Below are positions 29,906 through 50,013 of a stretch of DNA of 64,000 nucleotides, piece by piece (the stretch's first letter is position 1; each line of letters starts with the position of its first letter). The stretch is from the human T2T-CHM13v2.0 reference genome, Homo sapiens: the NCBI RefSeq assembly GCF_009914755.1, contig NC_060947.1; one strand, given 5' to 3'. The notes under the pieces are model-generated. The model worked only from the letters and a program-made list of their open reading frames with translations. It was not told the DNA's origin and did not search any database. A program made the translations under genes and the position numbers.

Positions 29906-32162
29906 TTTATTAGTCTGTTCTGATGCTGCTAATAAAGACACACCTAAGACTGGGTAATTTACAAAGGAAAGAGGTTTAATTGACTCACTATTCCACATGG
30001 CTGGGGAGGCCTCACAATTATGGTGGAAGGCAAAGGGGAAACAAGACATGTTTTACGTGGTGGCAGGCAAGAGAGCATGTGCAGGGGAACTCCCCTTTAT
30101 AAAACCATCAGATCTTGTGAGACTTATTCACTATCATGAGAAAAGCACAGGAAAAACATGCCCCCGTGATTCAACGACCTCCCACCAGGTCCCTCCCAGT
30201 ACACATGTGAATATGGGAGCTAAAATTCGAGATGAGATTTTGGTGAGGACAATGCCAAACCATATTATTCTGCCCCTGGCCCCTCCAAAATCTCATGTCC
30301 TTACATTTCAAAATGAATCATGCCTCCCCAACAGTCTCCCAAATTCTTAACTCATTTCAGCATTAACTCAAAAGTCCACAGTCCAAAGTCTCATCTGAGA
30401 CAAGGCAAGTGTCTTCCACCTCTGAGCCTGTGAAATCAAAACCAAATTGGTTACTTCCTAGATACAATAGGGGTACAGACATTGGGTATATAAACCCATT
30501 TCAAATGGCAGAAATTGACCAAAACAAAGGGGTTACAGGCCCCATGCCAGTCTGATGTCCAACAGGGCAGTCATTCAAACTTAAAGTTCCAAAATGATCT
30601 CCTTTGATTCCATGACTCACATCCAGCTCATGCTGATGGAAGATGTGGACTCCCACTGCCTTGGGCAGTTCCATCCTTGTGGCTTTGCAGGGCACAGCCC
30701 CGTTCCAGCTACTTTCATGGGCTGGTGTTTAGTGTCTGCCGCTTTTTCAAGTGCATGGGGCAAGCTGTCAGTGGATCTACCATTTGGGGGTCTGGAGTAC
30801 AATGGCCCTCTTCTCACAGCTCCACTGGGCAGTGTTCCATTGGGGACTCCGTGTGGAGGCTTCTACCCCACATTTCCCCTCTGCATTTCCCTAGTAGAGG
30901 TTATCCATGAGGGCTCTGCCTGGCAGCAAGCTTCTGCCTGGACATCCGGGCATTTGCATACATCCTCTGAAATCTAAGCAGAGGTTCCCAAACCTCAATT
31001 CTTGACTTCTGTGCACCTGCAGGCTCAATACCACATGTAAGCCACCAAGGCTTTGGGCTTGCAACCTCTGAAGCCACAGCCTGAGCTGTACCTTGGCCCC
31101 TTTTAGCCATGGCTAGAGCAGCTGGGACATAGGACACCTAGTCCCTAGGCTGCACACAGCAGAGGGGCCCTGGGGCCAGCCCAGGAAACCACTTTTACTC
31201 CTAGGTCTCTTGGACTTTGATGGGAGGGGCTGCCATGAAGGTCTCTGACATGCCCTGGAGATATTTTCCCTATTGTCTACTTGATTAACATTTGGCTTCC
31301 TGTTACTTACACAAATTTCTGCAGTCAGTTTGAACTTCTCCCCAGAAAATGGGTTTTTCTTTTCTGTTGCATCATTAGAGGCTGCAAATTTTCCAAACTT
31401 TTATGCTCTGCTTCTTCTTGAATGCTTTGCCACTTAGAAATATCTTACCCCACATGATCTAAATTATCTCTCTCAAGTTCAGAGTTCTACAGATCTCTAG
31501 GGCAGGGGCAACATGCTTCCAGTCCCTTTGCATAGCAAGAATGACCTTTTCTCCAGTTCCCAATAAGATCCTAATCTCCATTTGAGATCACCTCAGCCTG
31601 CACCTTATTGTCTATATCACTATTAGCATTTTAGTCAAAGCCATTCAATAAGTCTCTAGGAATTTCCAAACTTTCCCATATCTTTCTATCTTCTGAACCC
31701 TCCAAACTGTTCCAAACTCTGTCTGTTAACAGTTTCAAAGTCACTTCCACATTTTTGGATATCTTTACAGCAGTGCCCTAGTACCCAGTACCAATTTACT
31801 GTAATTATCTGTTCTCATGCTGCTAATAAAGACATACCCAAGACTGGGTAATTTATAAAGGAAATAGGTTTAATTCACTCACAGTTCCACATGGCTGAGG
31901 AAGCCTCACAATCAGGGCAAAAGGTGAAGGGGAAACAAGACACCTCTTACATGGAGGCAGACAAGGAAGTGTGTGTGCAGGGGAACTCCCCTTTATAAAA
32001 CCATCAGATCTCATGAAACTTATTCACTATCATGACAACAACATGGAAAATCCCGCCCCCATGATTCAATTATCTCCCACCGGGTTCCTCCCACAACATG
32101 TGGGAATTATGGGAGCTACAATTCAAGATGAGACTTGGGTGGGACACAGCCAAACCATATCA
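29906..32162 (-). mobile_element. Full-length THE1C-type MaLR element (3' LTR 29906-30267, internal region, 5' LTR 31800-32162), TSD CTAAT
   Basis: Two co-oriented LTRs with GCTGCTAATAAAGAC. THE1 internal sequence with PPT complement TTCTGCCCCTGGCCCC at 30268. CTAAT at 29901-29905 and 32163-32167. Confidence 0.95.
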
Positions 32163-35383: not shown

Positions 35384-37646
35384 ACTTTTTGCATCACATC
35401 TAAATAAGTTATAAAACCCACAATACAATCTTTTAAAACCTTTGCTTTAAATAGTCATACATATTTTAAGAAAATTAAAAGTAAAATATAATTTTTTCAC
35501 ATTTACCTACATACTTTCAATCTCTGGTGCTTGTCACTTCTGCCTAACATTCTGAATTTCCAGCTAGTATCATTAGCCTTCATCCATTAAAAAAAAAAAA
35601 AAATAGCATTTCCTATAGTACAGGTCTGATAAAAATACATTATTTTTATATTCACTTGTCTGAGTATATCTTTAGTTTGCTTTAATTTTTGAAGTACATT
35701 TTTATATGAAATTCTGGATTGAACTTTTTTCTGCTAGATATTTCTTCAAAGATATTGATCTAATGCGTTTGGGCTCTATTGTTTCTGATGACAGATCAAT
35801 AATAATTTAAATCAATTTTTATGACTATGTAATATGCCATTTTTTAGAGTTTCAAAGTTTGGTCTTTATCTTTGGTTTTTACCACTATGACTATGATGTG
35901 CATAGATGTGATTATATTAGTATTTTTTCTGCTTGGTGGTCATTGAGACTCTTTTATCTATAAATTTATGTCTTTCACTACATTTGGAAAATTTGTGTTT
36001 TCAAATATTTTTTCTGCTCTGATTTCTCTTTTTTCCACACTCTAGGTCTTCAGTTGCATGTATGTTGAATCATTTGCTAATGTTCCATATTCCCCAAGGA
36101 CCTTATTATCTTTTAAAATTGTTTCCCTTTTCTTTGTATTGAATAATTTATATTTATCTCTCTTCAGATTCACTAATCTTTTCTTCAGTCATCTGTTTGT
36201 GAGTCCATCAGTGACTTTAAAATTTGCAATATTTTGATATTTTAGTTCTAGAATTTCTATCCTATTTGGTTATTTTAAAAAATTTCTCTGCTGACACTTT
36301 TATCTTTCCAATTATTATAGGCCTATTTTACTTTGTGACCTGAGGCATATTTGTCATAGCTGCTTTGAAATTCTTCCATGATAATTGCAACATATTGGTA
36401 ATCTCAGTATTGGTCTTTATTATTTATCTTCACACACAAAATTTGGGAATCTTCCTCTGGCTCTCCTTTATATGAGACCCGTCTTCTTACTTTCCATTTG
36501 CCACGCTAATCTCAAACTCTGTATTCTATTTCTTTAAGCCAGTAAGACACTTTTATTTGACTTTTAGCCACCAAATATAGCACAGATAAAAGATGTAAAA
36601 AAAGGGAAACTCACCCAGTGCAATTATGATCTTCCAAGCTTCAACCCTCTTTGTTAACAATAATTCAAGAATCTGCATTTTCCAAAACAAATTTTGTTCT
36701 ACTAGCAAATACAATAACAAAAGAGAATTTACATTTCCAAGACTAAAATTTATTCTTTAATTATATTACACAAATGTCAGTTTTAAATAATTTTTTTACC
36801 TACGTAAAATTGTAGAGTAGAGGTAGGAAAGCTCTAATATTACTGAAAGAACAGCTTTAGCGAACTTGATTTCCAGTGTGTTACAGTCTATCAGAGACAA
36901 GGAGAATCTGGATTGCCCAAAGCCAAGATTAATAAATGCCTCTAAAAGCAAAGACCAGGTTATGTCCTGAGAATTTCTTTGCCTTGGCTTAATTAAGAGT
37001 TGAAAAATGAAGATGCTGCTTCTGTGAGTGGTTTTCCATTTAGGAAAGTATCTGAAATGCATTATTTCCAAGCTATTTTTACTCTACATTTTATAAAGTT
37101 TTAAGGCAGTTGCTAATATTTGGAGAAAATTCACACATAATGCCTATATCTAAATATAAACTTTCTATTAGACTTTAATACATATAAAGAAAGGTAATGC
37201 AGTATAATATTGAAAAAGTCTGATACTTAGCTAAACAATCATTTGAGGCTTAGAGCTTAGATGGAGGAGTATACAAGTACATTTTTCCTTCAGCATCACT
37301 CAGCTTGCATGGGTAAACAATAGCATCATCCCTAGTCTACTTATGTCAACCCATTGTGCCTCATAGAGTATAACAGATCTTAAGATTTTTGGAGCCATCC
37401 ATGATTTTCCTCTGGTTCTTTTTTATGTAAGAAGCCTCTCTTCATTGGATTTTCTTCTCAGTCACTCCTTAAGGATATCCTTTGTCTCTTGATTCCTCAG
37501 TTAGGTCTTTAAACTTGGTTATGCTTTTATTCTATTCCCCACTTCCACCCATAGACCTGAAGATAACTTTGCATAATAAATTCTGTTATATTTGGAAATG
37601 TGTCTGAGTAAGGATTTTGAGTGGTGGATAAAGAAATGATGCTTTC

Positions 37647-39584
37647 TGATGTGGCTTGGCTGTGTCCCCACCCAAATCTCATCTTGAATTGTAACTCCTG
37701 TAATCCCCACGTGTCATGGGAGGAACCTGGTAGGAGGTGATTGAATTATGGAGGTGGGTCTTTCCTGCACTGTTCTCATTATAGTGAATGAGTCTCACAA
37801 GATCTGATGGTTTTAAAAAGGGAGTTTCTCTGCACAAGCTCTTTGTGCCTGCCGCCAACCAAGTAAGATGTGACTTGCTCCCCCTTGCCTTCTGCCATGA
37901 TTGTGAGGCTTCCCAAGCCACATGGAACTGTGAGTTCTCCATTAAACCTCTTTCCTTTGTAAATTGCCCAGTCTTTGCTATGTCTTTATCAGCAGCATGA
38001 AAACAGATTAATACAGTAAATTCGTAAAAGTAGAGTTGGGCACTACTATAGATACCTGAAAATGTGGAAATGACTTTGGAACTGGGTAACAGGCAGGGGT
38101 TGGAACAGTTTGGAGAGCTCAGAAGAAGGCAGGAAAATGTGGGGAAGTTTGGAACTCCCTAAACACTTGTTGAATGGCTTTGACCAAAATGTTGATAATG
38201 ATATGGACAATGAAATTCAGGCTGAAGTGGTCTTAGATGGAGATAAGGAACTTCTTGGGAACTGGAGATGACTCTTGTTATGTTTTAGCATGTTAAAAGC
38301 ATCCAGTTTTATAAAGGAAGAAGAGCATAAGAGTTCAAAAAATTTGCAGCCTGGCAATGTGATAGAAAAGAAAAACCCATTTTCTGAGAAGAAATTTAAG
38401 GCAGCTGCAGAGATTTGCATAAATAAAGAGGGGCCAAATGTTAATTCTCAAGACAATGGTGCCCTGTGTTCCAGCCACTCCAGCCATGACTAAAAGGTGC
38501 CAAGGTACAGCTGAGGCTGTGGCTTCAGAGGGTGCAAGCCCCAAGTCTCAGCAGCTTCCACATGTTGTTGAGCCTGCAGGTGCAAAGAAGTCAAGAATTG
38601 AGGTTTGGGAACCTCCACCTAGATTTCAGAGGATGTATGGAAGTGACTGGATGTTCAGGCAGGAGTTTGTTGCACGGGCGGGGCCTTCATGAAGAACCTC
38701 TGCTAGGGCAGTGCAGAAAGGAAATGTTGGGTCAGAGCCCCCACACAGAGTCCTTACCTGAGCACCACTTAGTGGAGCTGTGAGAAGAGGGCTGCCGACC
38801 TCCAGACCCGAGAATGGTGGATCCACCGACAGCCCGCACCGTGCACTCAGAAAAGCCTCAGACACTTAACACCAGTCCGTGAAAGCAGCCAGGATGGAGG
38901 CTTTAACCTGCAAAGCCACAGGGATGGAGCTGCCCAAGACCATGGGAAACCACCTCTTGCATCAGCACGAACCGAATATGAGATATGGAGTTAAAGGAAA
39001 TCATTTTGGATGTTTAAGATTTGACTGCCCCACTGGATTTTGGGCCTGCATGATGCCTTTAGCCTGTTCATTTTGGCCAATTTCTCCCATTTGGAATGGC
39101 TGTCTTTACCCAATACTTGTACCCCCATTGTATTTAGGAAGTAACTAACTTGCTTTTGATTTTACAGGCTCATGAGCGGAAGGGACTTGCCTTGTCTCAT
39201 ATGAGACTCTGAACTGTGGACTTTTGAGTTAATGCTGAAATGAATTAAGACTTTGGGGGACTGTTGGGAAAGCATGATTGGTTTTGAAATGTGAGCATTG
39301 AGATTTGGGAGGGGCCAGGGGCTAAATGATATGGTTTAGCTGTGTCCCCACCCAAATGTCATCTTGAATTGTAGCACGAGATCTGATGATTTTATAAAGA
39401 AGAGTTTTCCCGCACAAGTTATCTTCTCTTGTCTGCCGCCATGTAAAATGTGACTTTCACCTACCACCATGATTGTGAGGCCTCCCCAACCATGCATAAC
39501 TGTGAGTCCATTGCACCCCTTTCTTTTGTACATTGCCCAGTCTCAGGTATGTCTTTATCAGCAGCATGAGAACAGACTAATACA
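37647..39584 (+). mobile_element. THE1A/B-type MaLR element (LTR 37647-38015, internally deleted internal region, deleted LTR 39327-39584) with non-matching flanks
   Basis: TG...CA LTRs and THE1 internal sequence. PPT GGGGCCAGGGG before 39327. Flanks are CTTTC versus CACAG. Confidence 0.95.
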
Positions 39585-39589
39585 CACAG

Positions 39590-39830
39590 TTTACTTAGTT
39601 TATGTTGGGCAGTTTACTTCCTTGAGGAATTCCTTTTCCTGTTATAGCAAAATATTTACCTGAGTCCCCAACCCCAACTAAGACAGAGTGACTTCTCAGT
39701 GTCCACTAAAATTTCCAGTACACTTAGCCCTTACAGTAGTTTTTGAGAGCAAAACTCTATTTCTATCTCTAGCCCTAAAACGTTCATTATATGCCAACAC
39801 AAAAGAAATATATTCAAGTTTTCACTATCC
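39590..39830 (+). mobile_element. Very decayed L2-like fragment
   Basis: Weak similarity to the L2 3' region (TTACTTCCTTGAGGAATTCC...TTTGAGAGCAAAACTCT). Confidence 0.35.
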
Positions 39831-39869
39831 TGGATATGATTCAACAACAAATTAATCAAGTATTCAATC

Positions 39870-40020
39870 ATTTTTCTTTCAATAGTCACTTATTGAGTAC
39901 CTACCATGTATCAGACACTGTATTAACCAATGGGGATTCTAGAGTAAGCAAATAAATAAGGCCTTTCCCAAATGGCCCCATCCAGAAGAAATCCAGTGGA
40001 TAGAAATGAATTTACACTCA
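39870..40020 (-). mobile_element. L2 3' end fragment
   Basis: TTCAATAGTCACTTATTGAGTACCTACCATGTATCAGACACTGT...TGGGGATT. Confidence 0.7.
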
Positions 40021-40103
40021 ATAAGATCAGATAGGACTAACAGTACTAGCTATTTGAAAACACAATGATAGGGTAATAAGTGTTTGGATATCTACTTTCT
40101 GTA

Positions 40104-40305
40104 CCAAAGATTCTTAAGCTTCTGAATGCATAAGAATTACAAGAGAAATTGTTTGAAATGCAAATAAAATTTTTTGAAATGCATATTCTTTGGACTCACT
40201 TTCAGAAATTTTTATTCTTTGTTTGGGGTGGGCCAATAATATTTATATTTACAAGCACTCGAAGTGATTCTGATGCAGTTGCCTACAGTTTAGGAAAATA
40301 AACTA
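40104..40305. mobile_element. MER5A-like hAT MITE
   Basis: ATTCTTAAGCTT...TGCATAAGAATTAC...GGGGTGGGCC...TTACAAGCACTC...GTGATTCTGATGCAG. Confidence 0.65.
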
Positions 40306-40362
40306 CCCCCATAGACTCTGTCAAGCAAAAGGCTATTTAATTCTCAGTGTCTTTCACCAGGA

Positions 40363-40666
40363 TTTTTTTTTTTTTTTGAGATAGGGTCTTGCTCTGTCAC
40401 TCAGGCTAAAGTGCAGTGGTGACAACATGGCTCACTGCAGCCTTGACCTCCTGGGCTAAAGCGATTATCCTGCTTCAGCATCCTGAGACACACGTAGCTG
40501 AGACTACAGACGTGCATCACCAAGCCCAGCTAGTTTTTATATTTTTTGTAGAGACTAGGTTTCACCATGTTGCCTAAGCTGGTCTCAAAGTCCTGGGCTC
40601 ATGCCATCTGCCTGCCTTGACCTCCCAAAGTGCTGGGACTACAGGTGTGAGCCACCACGCCCGGCT
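40363..40666 (-). mobile_element. AluJ
   Basis: GATAGGGTCTTGCTCTG...CATGGCTCACTGCAGCCTTGACCTCCTGGGCT and TCCTGGGCTCA. Confidence 0.93.
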
Positions 40667-40689
40667 TACAATTTTGAACTTTAGTTTTC

Positions 40690-42400
40690 TGCTGGGAGTG
40701 GAAAATGGGTATAGAGAGCTACAAAGAGCTTCACTTTTAATTTTATGACAAAGCAATGCCCGAAAAACAGCAAGTTCACAACTTTTCTTTAATCCATCAA
40801 GTGCTAAAGTTGCAGGGCAACAAACTGACTTGAAGACAAAATAGAGATGAGAACTGCAGAGACAGACAGAGCAATGATTCCCTGGAGCAAGATGCAGTCC
40901 CAAATCACTAAGAGTTTATCTAAGGTGACTGGCAAAGTATAGGTGAAGACTTCCCAAGTGAAAACCCCTGGTGACTCAAATCTAGAAGTGCACACCCTCT
41001 TGCAGGCTTCTTCTCCACTTTCCCACTGGAGATTTGCTGAAAAGATTAGGAGAGTCCTGAGAAAGTTGCCCTCGTGGTCCAGAAATGAGGAAGGGCTGCA
41101 GCCACTGAAGGAGAGGCAAAAAACTTCCTGGGGACCTTTCTCTCCATAAGTCCTAAGGAACAAAAGCCCTAATCTGCATGGAGTAGGGGTGGGGAAGGGC
41201 AAGAAATGCTGTTGCCTTAGGGCAGTAGTGAAAACTCAATGCACCTAGAAGAATGAAACAAGAAAAAAATAACTTTCTACCACTAGGGTAGGGGGCAAAA
41301 TGCATACTGAATTTAGAATTATAGTCTTATGAGAGGCAGTAACATAGAGAAAGCCACACTGTTCAAATCTAGGAAAGGGCTACTAGCACAAGACTGAAGT
41401 TTAATCAGAACAGAGAACATCTCCCAGCCTCCACTGTGAGGCTAAGAAGGGTGGAGTAACTTGTAATTTGCAAGAGAGATTCTTTCTGAGGCGCAGCACA
41501 AAGGAAAGACCAAAGGTTCTAAGGGGATTGCTTACAGGACCCACCATGGATATGAAAATTCAGATGCTCAAGTCCCTTATATAAAATGGCCTAGTATTTG
41601 CATATAGCCTAAACATACCCTTCTATATAATTTAAATTATCTCTAGATTTCTTATAATACCTAATACAATGTAAATTCTATGTAAATAGTTGTTATACTG
41701 TATTTTTCAAATTTATATTCTTTTTTATTTTTTTTAATATTTTTTATCTGCACTTGATTGAATCCAGATGTGGAACCTGTGGATAGAGAGGGCTGACTGT
41801 ATATTGATAAAATCCCTCTGAAAAATCAGCTCCCATCCTAAACACAAGTTATCACCAAATGCATTTAAAGCCTGTGTTATACCGAGAGTAACCATAGCAA
41901 CAACAAACTTCAGTCCCAGCCCAATACCTAATTAGATTAACTGGAACCCCTGAATTAGAAGCCTACCGAAATGAAAGGCATGCACATTTCCAGGCGTAAA
42001 TATTACTTACTTCAGTTTCTACTGTCCTCTACAAGATGTTTGGCTTAAAGAAAAACACTAAGCTTAAGAAATGGCAAGAAAAGCAATACACTCCCAAGAG
42101 ACATGAAAGCATCACAACCAGACACAGACATGACACACGTATTGTAACTGACAAAAAGTTTAAAATAGCTATGATTGATGTATTGAAAGCAAAAATTTGG
42201 AAAACTAGTAAGACCAGATAGGTCATTTCAGCAGGAGATGGAAACTCAGAATCAAAAGGAAATGCTAGAAATAAAAAACACTGTTACAGAAATGAGGAAT
42301 GTCTTCAATGGACTTATCTGTAGACTTGACAATGGCCTAGAAATGAAACACTGAGCTTGAAGATGGTCTATAGAAAAAAAAAGAGTGAAAACAGAACAAA
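40690..42400 (+). mobile_element. Old L1M 5'UTR/ORF1-start remnant
   Basis: TTTAAAATAGCTATGATTGATGTATT, GAAATGCTAGAAATAAAAAACACTGTTACAGAAATGAGGAATG...GGACTTATCTGTAGACTTGACA (ORF1 coiled-coil region). Confidence 0.7.
41522..41799 (+). mobile_element. MER2/MER2B, left TIR missing
   Basis: GGGGATTG...CAGGACCC...GATGCTCAAGTCCCTTATATAAAATGG...GGATAGAGAGGGCTGACTG followed by TA. Confidence 0.88.
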
Positions 42401-42404
42401 TTCT

Positions 42405-42670
42405 GACATGAGGAGATGATCCTGGATTATCTGGATAGGCTCTGTATGCAATCAAAAGATCCTTATAAGTAAAAAAGGAAGATGGGAGGGTCAGAGTCAC
42501 ATAGAGATTTGAAGACGCTACACTACTGGTTTTGAAAATGGAGGGAGGGGCCGTGAGCCAAGGAATGTCGATGGTCTCTAAAAGCTGGAAAAGGCAAGGA
42601 AAAGGATTCTCTCCTAGAGATTCCAGGAGTCCTGTTGGCATCCTGATTTTAGCTCAATATAAACCCAGTA
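42405..42670 (+). mobile_element. MLT1D fragment
   Basis: GGAGATGATCCTGGATTATCTGG...GAGCCAAGGAATG...AAGCTGGAAAAGGCAAGGAAA. Confidence 0.82.
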
Positions 42671-42855
42671 CTCTCTGCTATACTAACACTATTGGCTTGG
42701 AAAGAGCATCTCAGAATTAACTGCAATTTGGTGTTCACTCACATCCTAAAATAAATCCTGTCCATATTTCAACCACTGTTCAAAGACCCATTTAAGGCTC
42801 ACATCCTCTAAAAAGCCTTCTGCAGTCTTTTTCAGTATTTTACTGTGTAGTTGAT

Positions 42856-43344
42856 ATGGTAGGCAGAATAATGCTCTCATCCTAAAGCCCAAAAAATGTG
42901 AATATTTTAGGTTACATGGCAAAGGGGAATTAACATTGTAGAGAGAATCATGGCTGATAATCAGCTGACATTAGAATAGGGAGTTTAGCCTGGATTATTT
43001 GAGTGGGTCCAAAGTAATTACAAGAGTCCTAAAAGTGGAAGATGAGGTCAGTGGAAGATGTGACTATGGAAGAAATGCATAGAGAGATGGCTTGGAAGAT
43101 GGAGGATAGTGTCCATGAGCCAAGGAGTGTGGACAACCTCCGGAACCTAGAAAAGGCAAAAAAAAAAAAAAAAAAAAAAAAAAGTCCTCTGGAGCCAGAA
43201 AGGGAAGCAGCCAACACCTTTATTTTAGCCCAGTGAGACCTGTGTTGGAATGCTAACCTACAGAACTATAAGATAATAATTTTTGCTGTTTTAAGCCACT
43301 AAATTTGTGGTGATTTGTTATGGCAGCAATAGCAAACTAATGCA
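42856..43344 (+). mobile_element. MLT1D/E-type solo LTR with an internal poly(A) run
   Basis: TATGGTAGGCAGAATAATG...GTTACATGGCAAAGGGGAATT...TTTTAAGCCACTAAATTTGTGG...GCAGCAATAGCAAACTAATGCA. Confidence 0.88.
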
Positions 43345-44636
43345 TCTTCTGTAATCTTTTTCTAACCTATTGGTTTCTCTTTCATCAGTTATAACTCCTA
43401 AAATTGGAATAATTAAGCAGTCTTTAAAGTAATGAATGCAATGATAAAGTATTTTTTTTCAGTATGCCTAAAAATGTAGTCTTCACCCTCACCCTAAATT
43501 TAGAGCCTGTTTTATATGTCTCCTACTTAATGTATCTATAGTTTTATTTTTTTAAATAATTCAAAATAATGGTCAATATTATATTCAATAATTCAGAGTT
43601 TTCACCATTAAAATTAACTTCTTCCTTTTTTATGGATGCATTTACCAAAAATTTGGAAATAATCTTCACTTCTGCACCTATTTAGTCATCATCTGATCTG
43701 GCAAACATTTGTTTGTTTAATCCCATATTTTGAAGTGAATTAAAATTAACAAGGTAATGTTTAACCATATCAATTCTTATGATTTAGCAAATATTTATGC
43801 CACAATCAGCAGCAGTAGTACCAATATCATGAAGATTAATCAGGAATTGATATGTCAGTTTCGTTGTACTTCCATTCGGAGGCAACAGCCTCATTGGCTG
43901 CTGTCTTTTCCTGGCAGTAAAATAGCTGGACTTTGACCTTTACAGTTGAAAAAAGAAGAAATTGCCCTCCCTGTGTGATACTAGAAAAATTGGAATTAGA
44001 ATAAATTTCCCTGTGAGGTTATATATATGTAACAATTTTGCAGGCAGAGACAAGTGACCCAATACTCAACTAATTAGGCATGTAAAAGGCCAGTCCTGCT
44101 GGGTCTAAAGAAGTGAGTGAAAGAGTAGAGGGTCCTAAGGAGTGCTGGAACCATTTTAAGTCTGTGTTATCAACAGCAACAATGAAAATTGGCTAGTAAG
44201 AAATATATGTCCTCCTGTCTTGAATGCAATTATAATCTCATAGTATATTACAGTAATGTTGTTAGCCTCCATATTGTATTTGAACAACCAAAGAAAAGAC
44301 ATAAAGGTTGACCTTTGTCTTTCTCACCTATAACAGCTAGAGTCAATAAGCTTTATCCAAATAATCTCCTGATTTCTTTACAAAATGACAAGTAAATTAC
44401 TATTGATCCAATAATGCAGTACATTAATTCAATAATTTGTGAAATACCCACGCTCTGCCTAGCAAGTGATGAGAGTCAATTATAATAACAATAAGTTTTC
44501 TTACCAGCAGGGGAGTAGTAATGAGTGGGGTAGAGAATCAGAGTTTGCAGTGAGAAAATATTTATTCATTGAATTCAATTTTATTTTAAGGGCATAATGA
44601 CTCTCAAGATCTATTATTGAGATGTAGGGAGGTTAC

Positions 44637-44808
44637 CAGTGGTTCTTAAATCCGGAGAGTTATTAAATTTCAGAGTGTTTGAAAATATGTGGGGTATTTC
44701 TCCATAATCATTGGGAATTATTATTGGCATTTAATGCCCTGGGGCCACAAACACTAAATGTTCTGTAATGCACATACTATGGCAAAAGTGCTCTCTTGAA
44801 AAACATTT
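44637..44808. mobile_element. Decayed hAT-Charlie MITE (MER20/MER3-like)
   Basis: CAGTGGTTCTTAAA at one end and TTGAAAAACATT at the other. Internal ATTGGCATTTAATG...GGGGCCA. Confidence 0.5.
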
Positions 44809-44825
44809 TGCCAGACCAATGGAAG

Positions 44826-45186
44826 TGTATTAGTCGTTTTCATGCTGCGGATAAAGACACACCCAAGACTGGGCAATTTACAAAGGAAAGAGGTTTGATG
44901 GAGTACTCACAGTTCCACTTGGCTTGGGAGGCTTCACAATCATGGCAAAAGGTGATAGGCTCGTCTCACATGGTGGCAGACAGGAGAAGAGAACTTCTAT
45001 GGGGAAACTCCCCTTTAAAGAACCATCAGATCTCGTGAGACTTATTCACTATCATGAGAATAGAATGGGAAAGACCTGCCCCCATGATTCAATTATCTCC
45101 CACTGGGTCCCTCCCACAACATGGGGGAATTATGGGAGCTAAAATTCAAGATGGTATTTGGGTGGGGACACAACCAAACCATATCA
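44826..45186 (-). mobile_element. THE1A/B-type apparent solo LTR with non-matching flanks
   Basis: TGTATTAGTC...CCAAACCATATCA. Flanks are GGAAG versus CTGTG. Confidence 0.95.
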
Positions 45187-45570
45187 CTGTGTTTATTGGG
45201 AATTTCAGAAGATTCAGGCAGATTGTTTTTTATCACCAATTAAACTGAATTCATTACAATAAACAATAATTTTCTACAAACTCACCTTAATCAATAGTTA
45301 GAACAGACCTACCTAACACAAGAACTGTGTGATCATAGCAATACACAGAAAGTTCTAATTGTGCCTCATTCTTTCATTCACTGAGAAAAATCCAGGATAA
45401 GAAAGGAAGGAATAGAAGTGTAAACAATGAAGTCAGTAGTCTTGAATATTTCTTGGGGCATGAACTGTAAAAATGTAACCTATTATGTGTAGACCTCCCC
45501 ATTTACACATATAACTACAGTTTGTATATAGGTTCATATTAAGAAGTTTCTAAGAGCATGTTAGTGGGTA

Positions 45571-45940
45571 CAGATGGTCCCCAACTTATGACTTATGATA
45601 TTTCCACTTGTGATTTTTTTGATTTTATGATAGTGTAAAAGTGATATGTATTTACTAGAAACCATAGTATGAATAGTCATGCAAACATTTTATTTTTCTC
45701 TGTACAGCATTCAGTAATTACATGAGGTATTCAACACTTTACTGTAATATAGGCTTTGTTTTAGATGATTGCACCCAACTATAGACTAATGTAAGTGTTC
45801 CTGAGCATGCTTAAGGTAGGTGAGGCTGAAGTATGATGTTCGCTATGTTAGGTGTATTAAAGGAATTTTTGACTTAGGATATTTTAAATTTACTATTGGT
45901 TTATCAGGACATAACCCCCTAATGAGTCAAGGAGCACCTG
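45571..45940 (-). mobile_element. MER47A (Tigger-family MITE)
   Basis: TIRs CAGATGGTCCCCAACTTATGA and TAATGAGTCAAGGAGCACCTG. Internal GGCTTTGTTTTAGATGATT...AATGTAAGTGTTC. TA on the left. Confidence 0.88.
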
Positions 45941-49619: not shown

Positions 49620-49664
49620 GTGAGTGTGTGTATATATATACACACACACACAATAATATATATA
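49558..49664. repeat. Compound (TG)n(TA)n(CA)n microsatellite with two perfect palindromes
   Basis: (TG)10(TA)4(CA)10 at 49560-49607, and a second 24-bp palindrome at 49624-49647. Confidence 0.95.
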
Positions 49665-50013
49665 GTTTGGCTGTGTCCCCACCCAAATCTCATCTTTAAT
49701 TGTAACTCTCACAATTCCCACGTGTCATGGGAGAAACCCAGTGGGAGGTGATTGAATTATGGGGGTGGATCTTACCTGTGCTATTCTCGTGATAGTGAAT
49801 GAGTCTCACAAGACTTGATGGTTTTAAAAATGGGAGTTTCCTTGCTCAAGCTCTCTCTTTGCACCATCCATGTAAGATATGACTTGCTCTTCCTTGCCTT
49901 CTGCCATGATTGTGAGGCCTCCCCAGCTATGTGGAACTGTAAGTCCATTAAACCTCTTTTTCTTCCCTGTCTTGGGTATGTCTTTATCAGCAGCATGAAA
50001 ATGGACTAATACT
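49657..50013 (+). mobile_element. THE1B solo LTR
   Basis: GTTTGGCTGTGTCCCCACCCAAATCTCATC...CCATCCATGTAAGAT...GCAGCATGAAAATGGACTAATAC. TSD obscured by the microsatellite. Confidence 0.94.

What the first reader, a model, noticed from the sequence alone, without database searches (positions are those of the whole stretch)
37642..45191. Hidden multi-kb inversion revealed by reciprocally swapped TSDs of two inverted THE1 loci
Seen: the plus-strand THE1 (37647-39584) is flanked by CTTTC and CACAG. The minus-strand LTR (44826-45186) is flanked by GGAAG and CTGTG. Neither has a matching 5-bp TSD, unlike the THE1 loci at 25.1 and 29.9 kb. However, CACAG is the exact reverse complement of CTGTG, and GGAAG reverse-complements to CTTCC, a 4/5 match to CTTTC. 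Established: MaLR integration makes 5-bp TSDs, and non-allelic recombination between inverted repeats inverts the spacer and swaps the inner flanks in exactly this way. Inference: 39585-44825 is inverted relative to the ancestral state. Model 1 is exchange between the 39.3-kb and 44.8-kb LTRs (~5.3 kb). Model 2 is exchange between a solo LTR at 37.6 kb and the 5' LTR of a formerly minus-strand full element (~6.9 kb), which carried the internal region across and created a chimeric provirus. LTR divergence suggests an old event. Standard repeat annotation would not show it.
Basis: partly seen in the sequence, partly recalled or inferred. Interest (0 to 1): 0.8.

Follow-up and report, generated by a model that had tools for sequence, protein, structure and literature searches.

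The report
Old inversion between inverted THE1 LTRs
A stretch of about 5 to 7 kb in a gene-free part of the human X chromosome was most likely flipped long ago by recombination between two oppositely oriented retrotransposon LTRs; it is a clean but ordinary example of a known kind of rearrangement.

Summary
The plus-strand THE1-like element (37647-39584) and the minus-strand solo LTR (44826-45186) both lack matching 5-bp target-site duplications. Their flanks match crosswise, 5/5 and 4/5. Chance gives this 7.9e-5 per pair, or 4.8e-4 over the 6 inverted pairs in the window.

Two new lines of evidence from this genome alone support an exchange.
- The two LTRs of the apparent provirus belong to different subfamilies. 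The 5' LTR is "type 1" at 28 of 31 diagnostic columns. The 3' LTR is "type 2" at 24 of 25 covered columns, like the solo LTR (29 of 31).
- The solo LTR is itself a chimera. It has a type-2 head and a tail with two linked markers of the minority type-1 sublineage to which the 5' LTR belongs. None of the 50 other reference copies has both markers.

I conclude that this is an old inversion by ectopic recombination between inverted LTRs, with a gene-conversion tract. Model 1 (about 5.4-5.8 kb) survives only with a conversion tract of at least 217 nt.

No outgroup genome was available, so the ancestral orientation and the date are inferred, not shown. The mechanism and the detection logic are already in print. 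The segment holds no annotated gene. Interest is modest.

The parts
37642..37646 (+). Outer copy of target-site duplication X (CTTTC), left of the plus-strand element
   Evidence: It matches 4/5 the reverse complement of 44821-44825.
37647..38015 (+). 5' LTR 'L5' (369 nt), subfamily type 1, sublineage 1a up to at least position 309 (37955). It is read as the former solo LTR, plus a terminal piece of unknown length from the provirus.
   Evidence: Type 1 at 28 of 31 diagnostic columns. It lies inside the type-1 clade, support 100/100. It has all three 1a markers.
37910..37955 (+). Stretch of L5 that corresponds to the switch in B (37910-37935) and to the minimal conversion tract (37935-37955)
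   Evidence: Column-to-coordinate map; marker states.
38016..39326 (+). Internal region of the THE1-like element (non-coding). It has two internal deletions of about 120-130 nt relative to other copies.
   Evidence: gaps in the subject coordinates of all full-length matches. No ORF of at least 100 aa lies here.
39327..39584 (+). 3' LTR 'L3' (258 nt, about 100 nt deleted after position 47), subfamily type 2 throughout
   Evidence: Type 2 at 24 of 25 covered diagnostic columns and none of the three 1a markers. It lies in the type-2 clade, in the same 12-row subclade as B.
39585..39589 (+). Copy of target-site duplication Y (CACAG), right of the plus-strand element
   Evidence: It is the exact reverse complement of 45187-45191.
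39590..44820 (.). Spacer, inverted under either model. It is mostly unique DNA with old dispersed repeat fragments. No annotated gene, no Rfam match.
   Evidence: the 600 nt at each end are unique in the genome; 42.2-43.25 kb matches many loci at 68-81% identity; 0 Rfam matches.
44821..44825 (+). Inner copy of duplication X (GGAAG, reverse complement CTTCC)
44826..45186 (-). Solo LTR 'B' (361 nt), a chimera. The head is type 2 (45186 down to 44930) and the tail is type 1a (from 44905 down to at least 44885).
   Evidence: Type 2 at 29 of 31 diagnostic columns. It carries the 3-nt insertion (0 of 29 type-2 references, 0 of 21 non-1a type-1 references, 8 of 8 1a references). It also carries the 1a state at column 341 (1/29, 1/21, 8/8). 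It lacks the 1a state at column 293.
45187..45191 (+). Outer copy of duplication Y (CTGTG, reverse complement CACAG)

Best explanation
Two THE1-like (MaLR) insertions once lay in opposite orientation about 7 kb apart. One was a plus-strand solo LTR of subfamily 'type 1a', flanked by CTT(T/C)C. The other was a minus-strand full-length element of subfamily 'type 2', flanked by CACAG.

Ectopic homologous recombination took place between the solo LTR and the 5' LTR of the full-length element. The exchange lay in the conserved last third of the LTR, where the two subfamilies hardly differ. It inverted everything between the exchange points, about 6.9-7.0 kb, roughly 37.95-44.9 kb.

The event left three traces:
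- a plus-strand chimeric 'provirus' with a type-1a 5' LTR, then the internal region and a type-2 3' LTR;
- a minus-strand chimeric solo LTR with a type-2 head and a type-1a tail;
- reciprocally swapped target-site duplications.

A short gene-conversion tract of at least about 21 nt (LTR positions 289-309) accompanied the crossover, so both products carry the solo LTR's markers there.

Shown: the flanks, the subfamily discordance and the mosaic of the solo LTR. Inferred: the ancestral arrangement, the crossover with its conversion tract, and the choice of partner LTR. No function is implied. The result is a neutral structural scar in a gene desert.
For: 1. Swapped duplications. The flanks match crosswise 5/5 and 4/5. 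The chance probability is 7.9e-5 per pair, 4.8e-4 over 6 inverted pairs. Both control insertions with readable ends keep perfect 5-bp duplications (2 of 2).

2. Discordant LTRs. I compared the LTRs with 29 genomic copies nearest L5 and 29 nearest B. These came, which each scored 40 of 7443 and 9618 candidates.
- There are 31 diagnostic columns. L5 is type 1 at 28/31, L3 is type 2 at 24/25 covered, and B is type 2 at 29/31. No reference copy shows more than 4/31 states of the wrong type.
- The tree of the LTR head splits the two types with support 100/100. L5 falls in one clade and L3 and B in the other, within the same 12-row subclade (81/90).
- A tree with L3 and B held as sisters has a log-likelihood 6.09 higher than the free search.
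- The intact control provirus at 29908-32162 has LTRs that agree at 20 of 27 diagnostic columns. L5 and L3 agree at 3 of 25 (my count of the printed strings).

3. B is a chimera whose tail matches L5's own sublineage.
- Eight of 29 type-1 references form sublineage 1a, with three linked markers (column 293, a 3-nt insertion, column 341).
- L5 has all three. B has the insertion and the column-341 state but not column 293. L3 has none.
- 0 of 29 type-2 references and 0 of 21 other type-1 references have both markers.
- The 29 copies nearest B all lack the insertion, so B is not a member of a natural mosaic subfamily among those sampled.

4. Partner choice.
- Model 2 needs a conversion tract of only about 21 nt or more, lying in the conserved tail. 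The longest exact L5/B run is 32 nt in the tail against 17 nt in the head.
- Model 2 predicts that the L3-B head divergence (since integration) is at least as large as the L5-B divergence after the exchange point (since inversion). Observed mismatches are 28/156 against 9/104, Fisher one-sided p = 0.025.
Against: - No outgroup or empty site could be examined, so the ancestral orientation was never seen.
- A simple reciprocal crossover does not fit either model. L5 keeps the 1a markers at positions 289-309, where Model 2 without conversion predicts type-2 states. A conversion tract therefore has to be assumed.
- The AU test did not formally reject L5 and L3 as sisters (log-likelihood 38.7 lower, p-AU 0.112).
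- L3 and B are no more alike than random type-2 pairs. Head identity is 0.827, against about 0.85 expected from the identities (my arithmetic). B's nearest neighbour in the free tree is L003 (97/85), not L3.
- L5-B tail identity (0.906) is not an outlier among random type-1 x type-2 pairs (mean 0.871, 95th percentile 0.912).
- Eight of the 31 diagnostic columns are one 8-nt indel, so there are fewer independent characters than columns.
- Three of the eight 1a references (L039, L043, L052) are near-identical duplicates, so there are about six independent 1a copies.
- The reference sets were chosen by similarity to L5 and B. Only the typing of L3 is independent of that choice.
- The affiliation of the internal region could not be decided.
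- The Fisher comparison rests on small counts and on equal rates in head and tail. Within-type identity is 0.87-0.885 in both regions.
Confidence: 0.62

Rival explanations
1. Model 1: the same kind of inversion, but the partners were the 3' LTR at 39.3 kb and the solo LTR at 44.8 kb.
- The ancestral state was a plus-strand full-length type-1a element flanked by CTT(T/C)C and a minus-strand type-2 solo LTR flanked by CACAG.
- The crossover for the B product lies at LTR positions 264-289.
- A conversion tract of at least 217 nt (positions 48-264) overwrote the 3' LTR with the solo LTR's type-2 sequence.
- Only about 5.4-5.8 kb is inverted. The internal region is not.
For: - It explains the swapped duplications equally well.
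- It explains B's type-2 head and 1a tail directly, as solo head plus provirus 3' LTR tail.
- It explains why L5 is 1a along its whole informative length without any change to L5.
- From my recall, crossover-associated conversion tracts of a few hundred nt are ordinary in mammals. This was not checked here.
Against: - It needs a tract of at least 217 nt across the most divergent part of the LTR. That part holds about 24 diagnostic differences, including an 8-nt indel. Only 47 nt or fewer of homology remain on one side.
- It predicts that the L3-B head divergence (since inversion) is no larger than the L5-B tail divergence (since integration). The observed order is the opposite, 28/156 against 9/104 mismatches, one-sided p = 0.025.
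- L3 and B share no excess similarity.
Confidence: 0.22
2. No inversion.
- The plus-strand element is chimeric for another reason, such as a deletion by recombination between two tandem elements of different subfamilies, or gene conversion of one LTR.
- The solo LTR received a short non-crossover conversion patch from the 5' LTR.
- The crosswise match of the flanks is coincidence.
For: - Mosaic LTR subfamilies do exist in this genome. 15 of the 20 3' LTRs typed are neither pure type.
- The scan that produced the finding looked at very many windows, so a coincidence of 1 in 10,000 will occur somewhere.
- The AU test did not reject L5 and L3 as sisters (p = 0.112).
Against: - It needs three unrelated events, plus loss or absence of duplications at both elements, where one event explains everything.
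- The flank coincidence has p = 7.9e-5.
- The conversion patch would have to come from exactly the element whose flanks match.
- Both readable control insertions of similar age keep perfect duplications (2 of 2).
- None of the 29 copies nearest B has the 1a insertion.
Confidence: 0.1
3. The same inverted end state was produced by replication-based template switching between the inverted LTRs (fork stalling or microhomology-mediated), not by meiotic or mitotic crossover. Alternatively it took more than one step, for example an inversion followed by a later, separate conversion.
For: - From the sequence, the structural outcome cannot be told apart from that of a crossover.
- The mosaic in B and L5 could come from two separate events.
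- Lee et al. 2008 (PMC2603318, passages read) discuss secondary structure and template switching between inverted repeats as routes to such inversions.
Against: - Nothing specific speaks for it. There are no inserted or duplicated bases at the junctions, and both LTRs have normal length.
- A single crossover with a conversion tract is simpler.
Confidence: 0.06

Closest known systems
Retrotransposon recombination-mediated inversion (RRMI), Lee, Han, Meyer, Kim and Batzer 2008, PLoS One 3:e4047 (PMC2603318; abstract and passages read)
   Same: Inverted copies of one retrotransposon family lie at both breakpoints. The breakpoint elements become chimeric and their target-site duplications no longer match. 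That paper used matching duplications to tell the ancestral state from the derived one.
   Different: - That study concerned L1 and Alu, with duplications of 7-20 bp. It covered events since the human-chimpanzee split and confirmed them by genome comparison and PCR.
- Here the repeats are MaLR LTRs with 5-bp duplications.
- The event here appears much older and is inferred from one genome only.
- A conversion tract can be read here from subfamily markers.
Rearranged HERV-K proviruses, Hughes and Coffin 2001, Nat Genet 29:487 (seen only as an entry in a reference list; content recalled)
   Same: As I recall it, discordance between the two LTRs of a provirus, together with mismatched flanking duplications, was used to infer recombination between separate proviruses.
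   Different: - It concerns a different, much younger retroviral family, and was aided by comparison among primates.
- I could not read the paper, so the comparison rests on my recall.
Non-allelic homologous recombination between inverted low-copy repeats (general mechanism of recurrent human inversions; recalled)
   Same: A crossover between inverted homologous sequences inverts the spacer without gain or loss of DNA.
   Different: Known recurrent inversions use long, nearly identical duplications. Here the repeats are 360 nt and are now only 79% identical overall, so recurrence or present-day polymorphism is unlikely.

Membership tests
Inversion by recombination between inverted retrotransposon copies (RRMI / NAHR) | Homologous repeats in inverted orientation at both breakpoints | tested here: met
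   Inverted repeat pairs I1-I5 link 37647-38004 and 39327-39573 with 44836-45186. The blastn table agrees.
Inversion by recombination between inverted retrotransposon copies (RRMI / NAHR) | Target-site duplications mismatched at each element and matching crosswise | tested here: met
   5/5 and 4/5 crosswise; p = 7.9e-5 per pair.
Inversion by recombination between inverted retrotransposon copies (RRMI / NAHR) | Breakpoint elements are chimeras of the two parental copies | tested here: met
   B has a type-2 head and a type-1a tail. The plus-strand element has LTRs of two subfamilies. The reciprocal switch inside L5 or L3 is not seen directly and requires a conversion tract.
Inversion by recombination between inverted retrotransposon copies (RRMI / NAHR) | Opposite orientation of the spacer in a genome that lacks the event | not testable with these tools
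   No primate or other mammalian genome besides the window's own is held (one search states that there are no relatives). The flanks are unique in this genome, so no paralogue can stand in.
   LTRs of 369 and 361 nt with TG...CA ends. 7443 and 9618 first-look candidates in the genome, best non-self identity 88%.
   Both readable control insertions in the window have perfect 5-bp duplications (2 of 2). The two elements of the finding have them only crosswise.
   No Dfam or Repbase library is on hand, and Rfam gave 0 matches. 'Type 1', '1a' and 'type 2' are working labels defined.

The most novel reading that the evidence does not exclude
The exchange may be younger than the insertions by tens of millions of years. 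L5 and B differ at only 9 of 104 sites after the exchange point, while the two LTRs of the type-2 element differ at 28 of 156. The inversion would then be confined to part of the simian tree. It would be a rare genomic change useful for phylogeny.

In addition, three signs together can be read from a single genome: the duplication swap, the LTR subfamily discordance and the marker mosaic. A genome-wide search for them could reveal many hidden ancient inversions and measure their conversion tracts without any outgroup.
Probability: 0.25. Interest if true: 0.4.

Novelty: new member of a known kind. Interest (0 to 1): 0.3.

Why it matters
The finding has little biological weight. The segment lies in a gene desert, with no annotated gene, no RefSeq functional element, no Rfam match and no meaningful ORF.

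Its value lies in method.
- It shows that an ancient, balanced, kilobase-scale inversion can be recovered from one genome by combining flank duplications with LTR subfamily markers.
- The same markers expose the conversion tract of the exchange.
- It also warns that an apparently full-length LTR element may be assembled from two insertions. Dating such an element by LTR-LTR divergence would then be wrong.

Tried and rejected
1. Flank continuity through older repeats. The 600 nt at each of the four junctions gave only self matches in the genome. The exception is a repeat about 380 nt away from the right outer junction. No paralogue or older split repeat can therefore show the ancestral joins.

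2. Excess similarity of the L5 and B tails as a sign of conversion. Identity is 0.906 against a random-pair mean of 0.871 (95th percentile 0.912), so it is not an outlier. That difference is explained by the heavier decay of L3.

3. Affiliation of the internal region, to decide between Models 1 and 2.
- There were 0 diagnostic columns between 8 type-1-attached and 4 type-2-attached internal regions.
- The 3' LTRs of the 20 best genomic matches to the internal region are a mixture: 4 pure type 2, 1 pure type 1 and 15 mosaics.
- Only 2 candidate columns separate the two 1a-attached copies from the type-2-attached ones. That is noise level, and the window's copy has the common state at both.
- This test was uninformative.

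4. AU tests. L3+B as sisters is not rejected and in fact scores better. L5+L3 as sisters scores 38.7 log-likelihood units worse but is not formally rejected (p = 0.112).

5. The rare state shared by L5 and B at LTR position 269 also occurs in two type-2 neighbours of B (L003, L023). It is ambiguous and I did not use it.

6. Literature. Four full-text searches found the general mechanism but no paper on this locus or on a THE1-mediated inversion. This does not show that none exists.

8. Rfam (0 matches) and Pfam on the only ORF of at least 100 aa (0 families) gave nothing functional in the segment.

Full report
**What is there**

The window holds five THE1-like LTR insertions between 25 and 50 kb. 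The finding concerns two of them.
- Element A (37647-39584, plus strand) has the layout LTR - internal region - LTR.
  - The 5' LTR, L5, spans 37647-38015 (369 nt).
  - The internal region spans 38016-39326.
  - The 3' LTR, L3, spans 39327-39584 (258 nt). About 100 nt are missing after position 47.
- Element B (44826-45186, minus strand) is a solo LTR of 361 nt.

All ends are the canonical TG...CA.

**Check of the observation**

- A lies between CTTTC and CACAG.
- B lies between GGAAG and CTGTG on the plus strand.
- In element orientation these read CTTTC...CACAG and CACAG...CTTCC.

Writing out an exchange between inverted repeats gives this pattern. The left element keeps its own 5' flank and gains the other element's 3' flank, and the right element does the reverse.

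Two other THE1-like insertions in the window have readable ends, and both keep perfect 5-bp duplications (CCTCC/CCTCC and CTAAT/CTAAT). Duplications of this age are therefore still legible here. The locus at 49.6 kb abuts a microsatellite and was left out.

Random 5-mer pairs from the window give 7.9e-5 for one 5/5 match together with one match of at least 4/5. Over the 6 inverted element pairs in the window this becomes 4.8e-4. That is strong for one window, but not conclusive for a scan of very many windows.

**New evidence 1: the provirus has LTRs of two subfamilies**

The two LTRs of an LTR element are copied from one template at integration, so they should be of the same subfamily. This is established retroelement biology.

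I took the 29 genomic copies nearest L5 ("type 1", about 369 nt) and the 29 nearest B ("type 2", about 359 nt). They came, which each scored 40 of 7443 and 9618 first-look candidates.
- The two sets differ at 31 alignment columns, each at 70% or more in both sets. Eight of those columns are a single 8-nt indel.
- L5 is type 1 at 28/31. L3 is type 2 at 24 of 25 covered columns. B is type 2 at 29/31.
- No reference copy shows more than 4/31 wrong-type states.
- A maximum-likelihood tree of the LTR head (244 columns, 61 rows) separates the types with support 100/100. L5 falls in one clade. L3 and B fall in the other, in the same 12-row subclade (81/90).
- Holding L3 and B together as sisters gives a tree 6.09 log-likelihood units better than the free search found (p-AU 0.62).
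- Holding L5 and L3 together costs 38.7 units. The AU test did not reach significance (p = 0.112).
- As an internal control, the intact provirus at 29908-32162 has LTRs that agree at 20 of 27 comparable diagnostic columns. L5 and L3 agree at 3 of 25 (my count of the printed strings).

**New evidence 2: the solo LTR is a mosaic that points to L5**

The last third of the LTR has no column that separates the two types at the 70% level. A leave-one-out likelihood score still separates them over positions 242-300 (AUC 0.98).

The cause is a sublineage of type 1, here called 1a.
- It comprises 8 of the 29 type-1 references. Three of these (L039, L043, L052) are near-identical duplicates, so about six are independent.
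- It has three linked markers: a base at column 293 (LTR position 264), a 3-nt insertion (positions 289-291) and a base at column 341 (position 309).
- Among the other 50 references, the insertion occurs in 0 and the column-341 state in 2. None has both.
- L5 has all three markers and L3 has none.
- B lacks the first marker but has the insertion and the column-341 state.

B therefore changes from type 2 to type 1a between window positions 44930 and 44905. The 1a part matches the minority sublineage of the element whose flanks it shares. None of the 29 copies most similar to B has the insertion, so B is an individual chimera and not a member of a sampled mosaic subfamily.

**Which LTR was the partner**

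- Model 2 (L5 x B): the B product is explained by a switch at positions 264-289. However, L5 should then lose the 1a markers at 289-309, and it does not.
- Model 1 (L3 x B): B is explained in the same way. However, L3 should then have a type-1a head, and it is type 2 from position 48 onward.

Each model works once a gene-conversion tract next to the crossover is allowed.
- Model 2 needs at least about 21 nt (positions 289-309).
- Model 1 needs at least 217 nt (positions 48-264).

I favour Model 2 for two reasons.
1. Its whole exchange lies in the conserved tail. There the longest exact L5/B run is 32 nt, against 17 nt in the head. Model 1 needs a tract across about 24 differences and an 8-nt indel, with at most 47 nt of homology on one side.
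2. The order of divergences fits Model 2.
   - Under Model 2, the L3-B head dates the integration and L5-B after the exchange point dates, at least in part, the later inversion. Model 1 predicts the reverse order.
   - Observed mismatches are 28/156 against 9/104 (Fisher two-sided p = 0.046, one-sided p = 0.025).
   - Head and tail evolve at similar rates in the reference copies (within-type identity 0.87-0.885).

This is a modest preference, not a proof.

**What led nowhere**

I tried three ways to assign the internal region to type 1a or type 2. All were uninformative.

One search also showed that the LTR subfamilies of this family form a network of mosaics. Of 20 typed 3' LTRs, 4 are pure type 2, 1 is pure type 1 and 15 are mixed. 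"Type 1" and "type 2" are therefore only two of several forms.

The L5-B tail identity as a whole is not an outlier. L3 and B are no more alike than random type-2 pairs. Both points are expected if the exchange came soon after integration, but they add no support.

All four junction flanks are unique in the genome, so no paralogue can show the old joins.

**Age**

The L3-B head distance (Jukes-Cantor 0.205) implies about 0.10 substitutions per site per lineage since the type-2 element integrated. With the commonly used primate neutral rate (recalled, about 2e-9 per site per year), this is of the order of 45 million years.

The inversion is younger than both insertions. How much younger cannot be read from this sequence. 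The L5-B distance after the exchange point (0.092) would suggest roughly half that age, but only if the whole tail were the conversion tract, and that is unknown.

**Content of the segment**

No gene and no RefSeq element is annotated (hub note). Rfam gives 0 matches over 36-47 kb. The only ORF of at least 100 aa (42252-42641, minus strand) has no Pfam family and lies in old dispersed repeats.

**Comparison with what is known**

The mechanism and the detection logic are in print for L1 and Alu. Lee et al. 2008 (PMC2603318, passages read) state that after such an inversion the breakpoint elements are chimeric and their duplications no longer match.

The use of LTR discordance together with flank mismatch for endogenous retroviruses goes back, as I recall it, to Hughes and Coffin 2001. 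I saw that paper only as an entry in a reference list.

Four full-text searches turned up nothing on this locus or on THE1-mediated inversions. Supplementary inversion tables could not be opened.

**Verdict**

An old LTR-mediated inversion is very likely, about 0.85-0.9 over all versions.
- Model 2 with a short conversion tract is the best version (about 0.6).
- Model 1 with a long tract is a live rival (about 0.2).
- Coincidence is unlikely (about 0.1).

It is a new instance of a known kind of event, with modest interest.

Noticed in passing
window 25130-50013: Five THE1-like insertions lie within 25 kb: about 25.13-25.49 kb (-), 29908-32162 (-, full length), 37647-39584 (+), 44826-45186 (-) and about 49.66-50.01 kb (+). 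This seems dense for a family with candidate copies in the thousands genome-wide. No statistic was computed.
   Followed up: partly
window 29908-32162 (-): This is a full-length THE1-like element with an intact 5-bp duplication (CTAAT/CTAAT). Its LTRs belong to a third subfamily, mixed at my diagnostic columns, and agree with each other at 20 of 27 of them. I used it as a control.
   Followed up: yes
window 49655-50013 (+): This solo LTR is type 1 (27 of 28 covered diagnostic columns). Its 5' end runs into a TA/CA microsatellite, so its target-site duplication cannot be read.
   Followed up: partly
window 38016-39326: The internal region lacks two blocks of about 120-130 nt, after its positions 275 and about 443. 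These blocks are present in all 11 reference copies whose matches span both sites; a 12th copy (L051) matched only from position 619 and a 13th (L010) matched only positions 23-194.
   Followed up: no
window 42252-42641 (-) and 42200-43250: The only ORF of at least 100 aa in 37-46 kb is 129 aa long and has no Pfam family. It lies in old dispersed repeats that match many loci at 68-81% identity. It is probably a chance frame.
   Followed up: partly
window 45569-45786: A dispersed repeat has 39 scored copies elsewhere in the genome, out of 661 candidates, at 72-78% identity. It lies about 380 nt outside the right junction.
   Followed up: no
loci L039, L043, L052 (G000 contigs C21, C2, C18): These three type-1a LTR copies on different chromosomes are almost identical (end branches 0-0.005). 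They presumably lie in recent segmental duplications. They reduce the number of independent 1a references from 8 to about 6.
   Followed up: no
loci L074-L093: The 3' LTRs of the 20 proviruses whose internal regions best match the window's copy show at least four recurring mosaics of my type-1 and type-2 states. The LTR subfamilies of this family are therefore reticulate, not two clean groups.
   Followed up: partly
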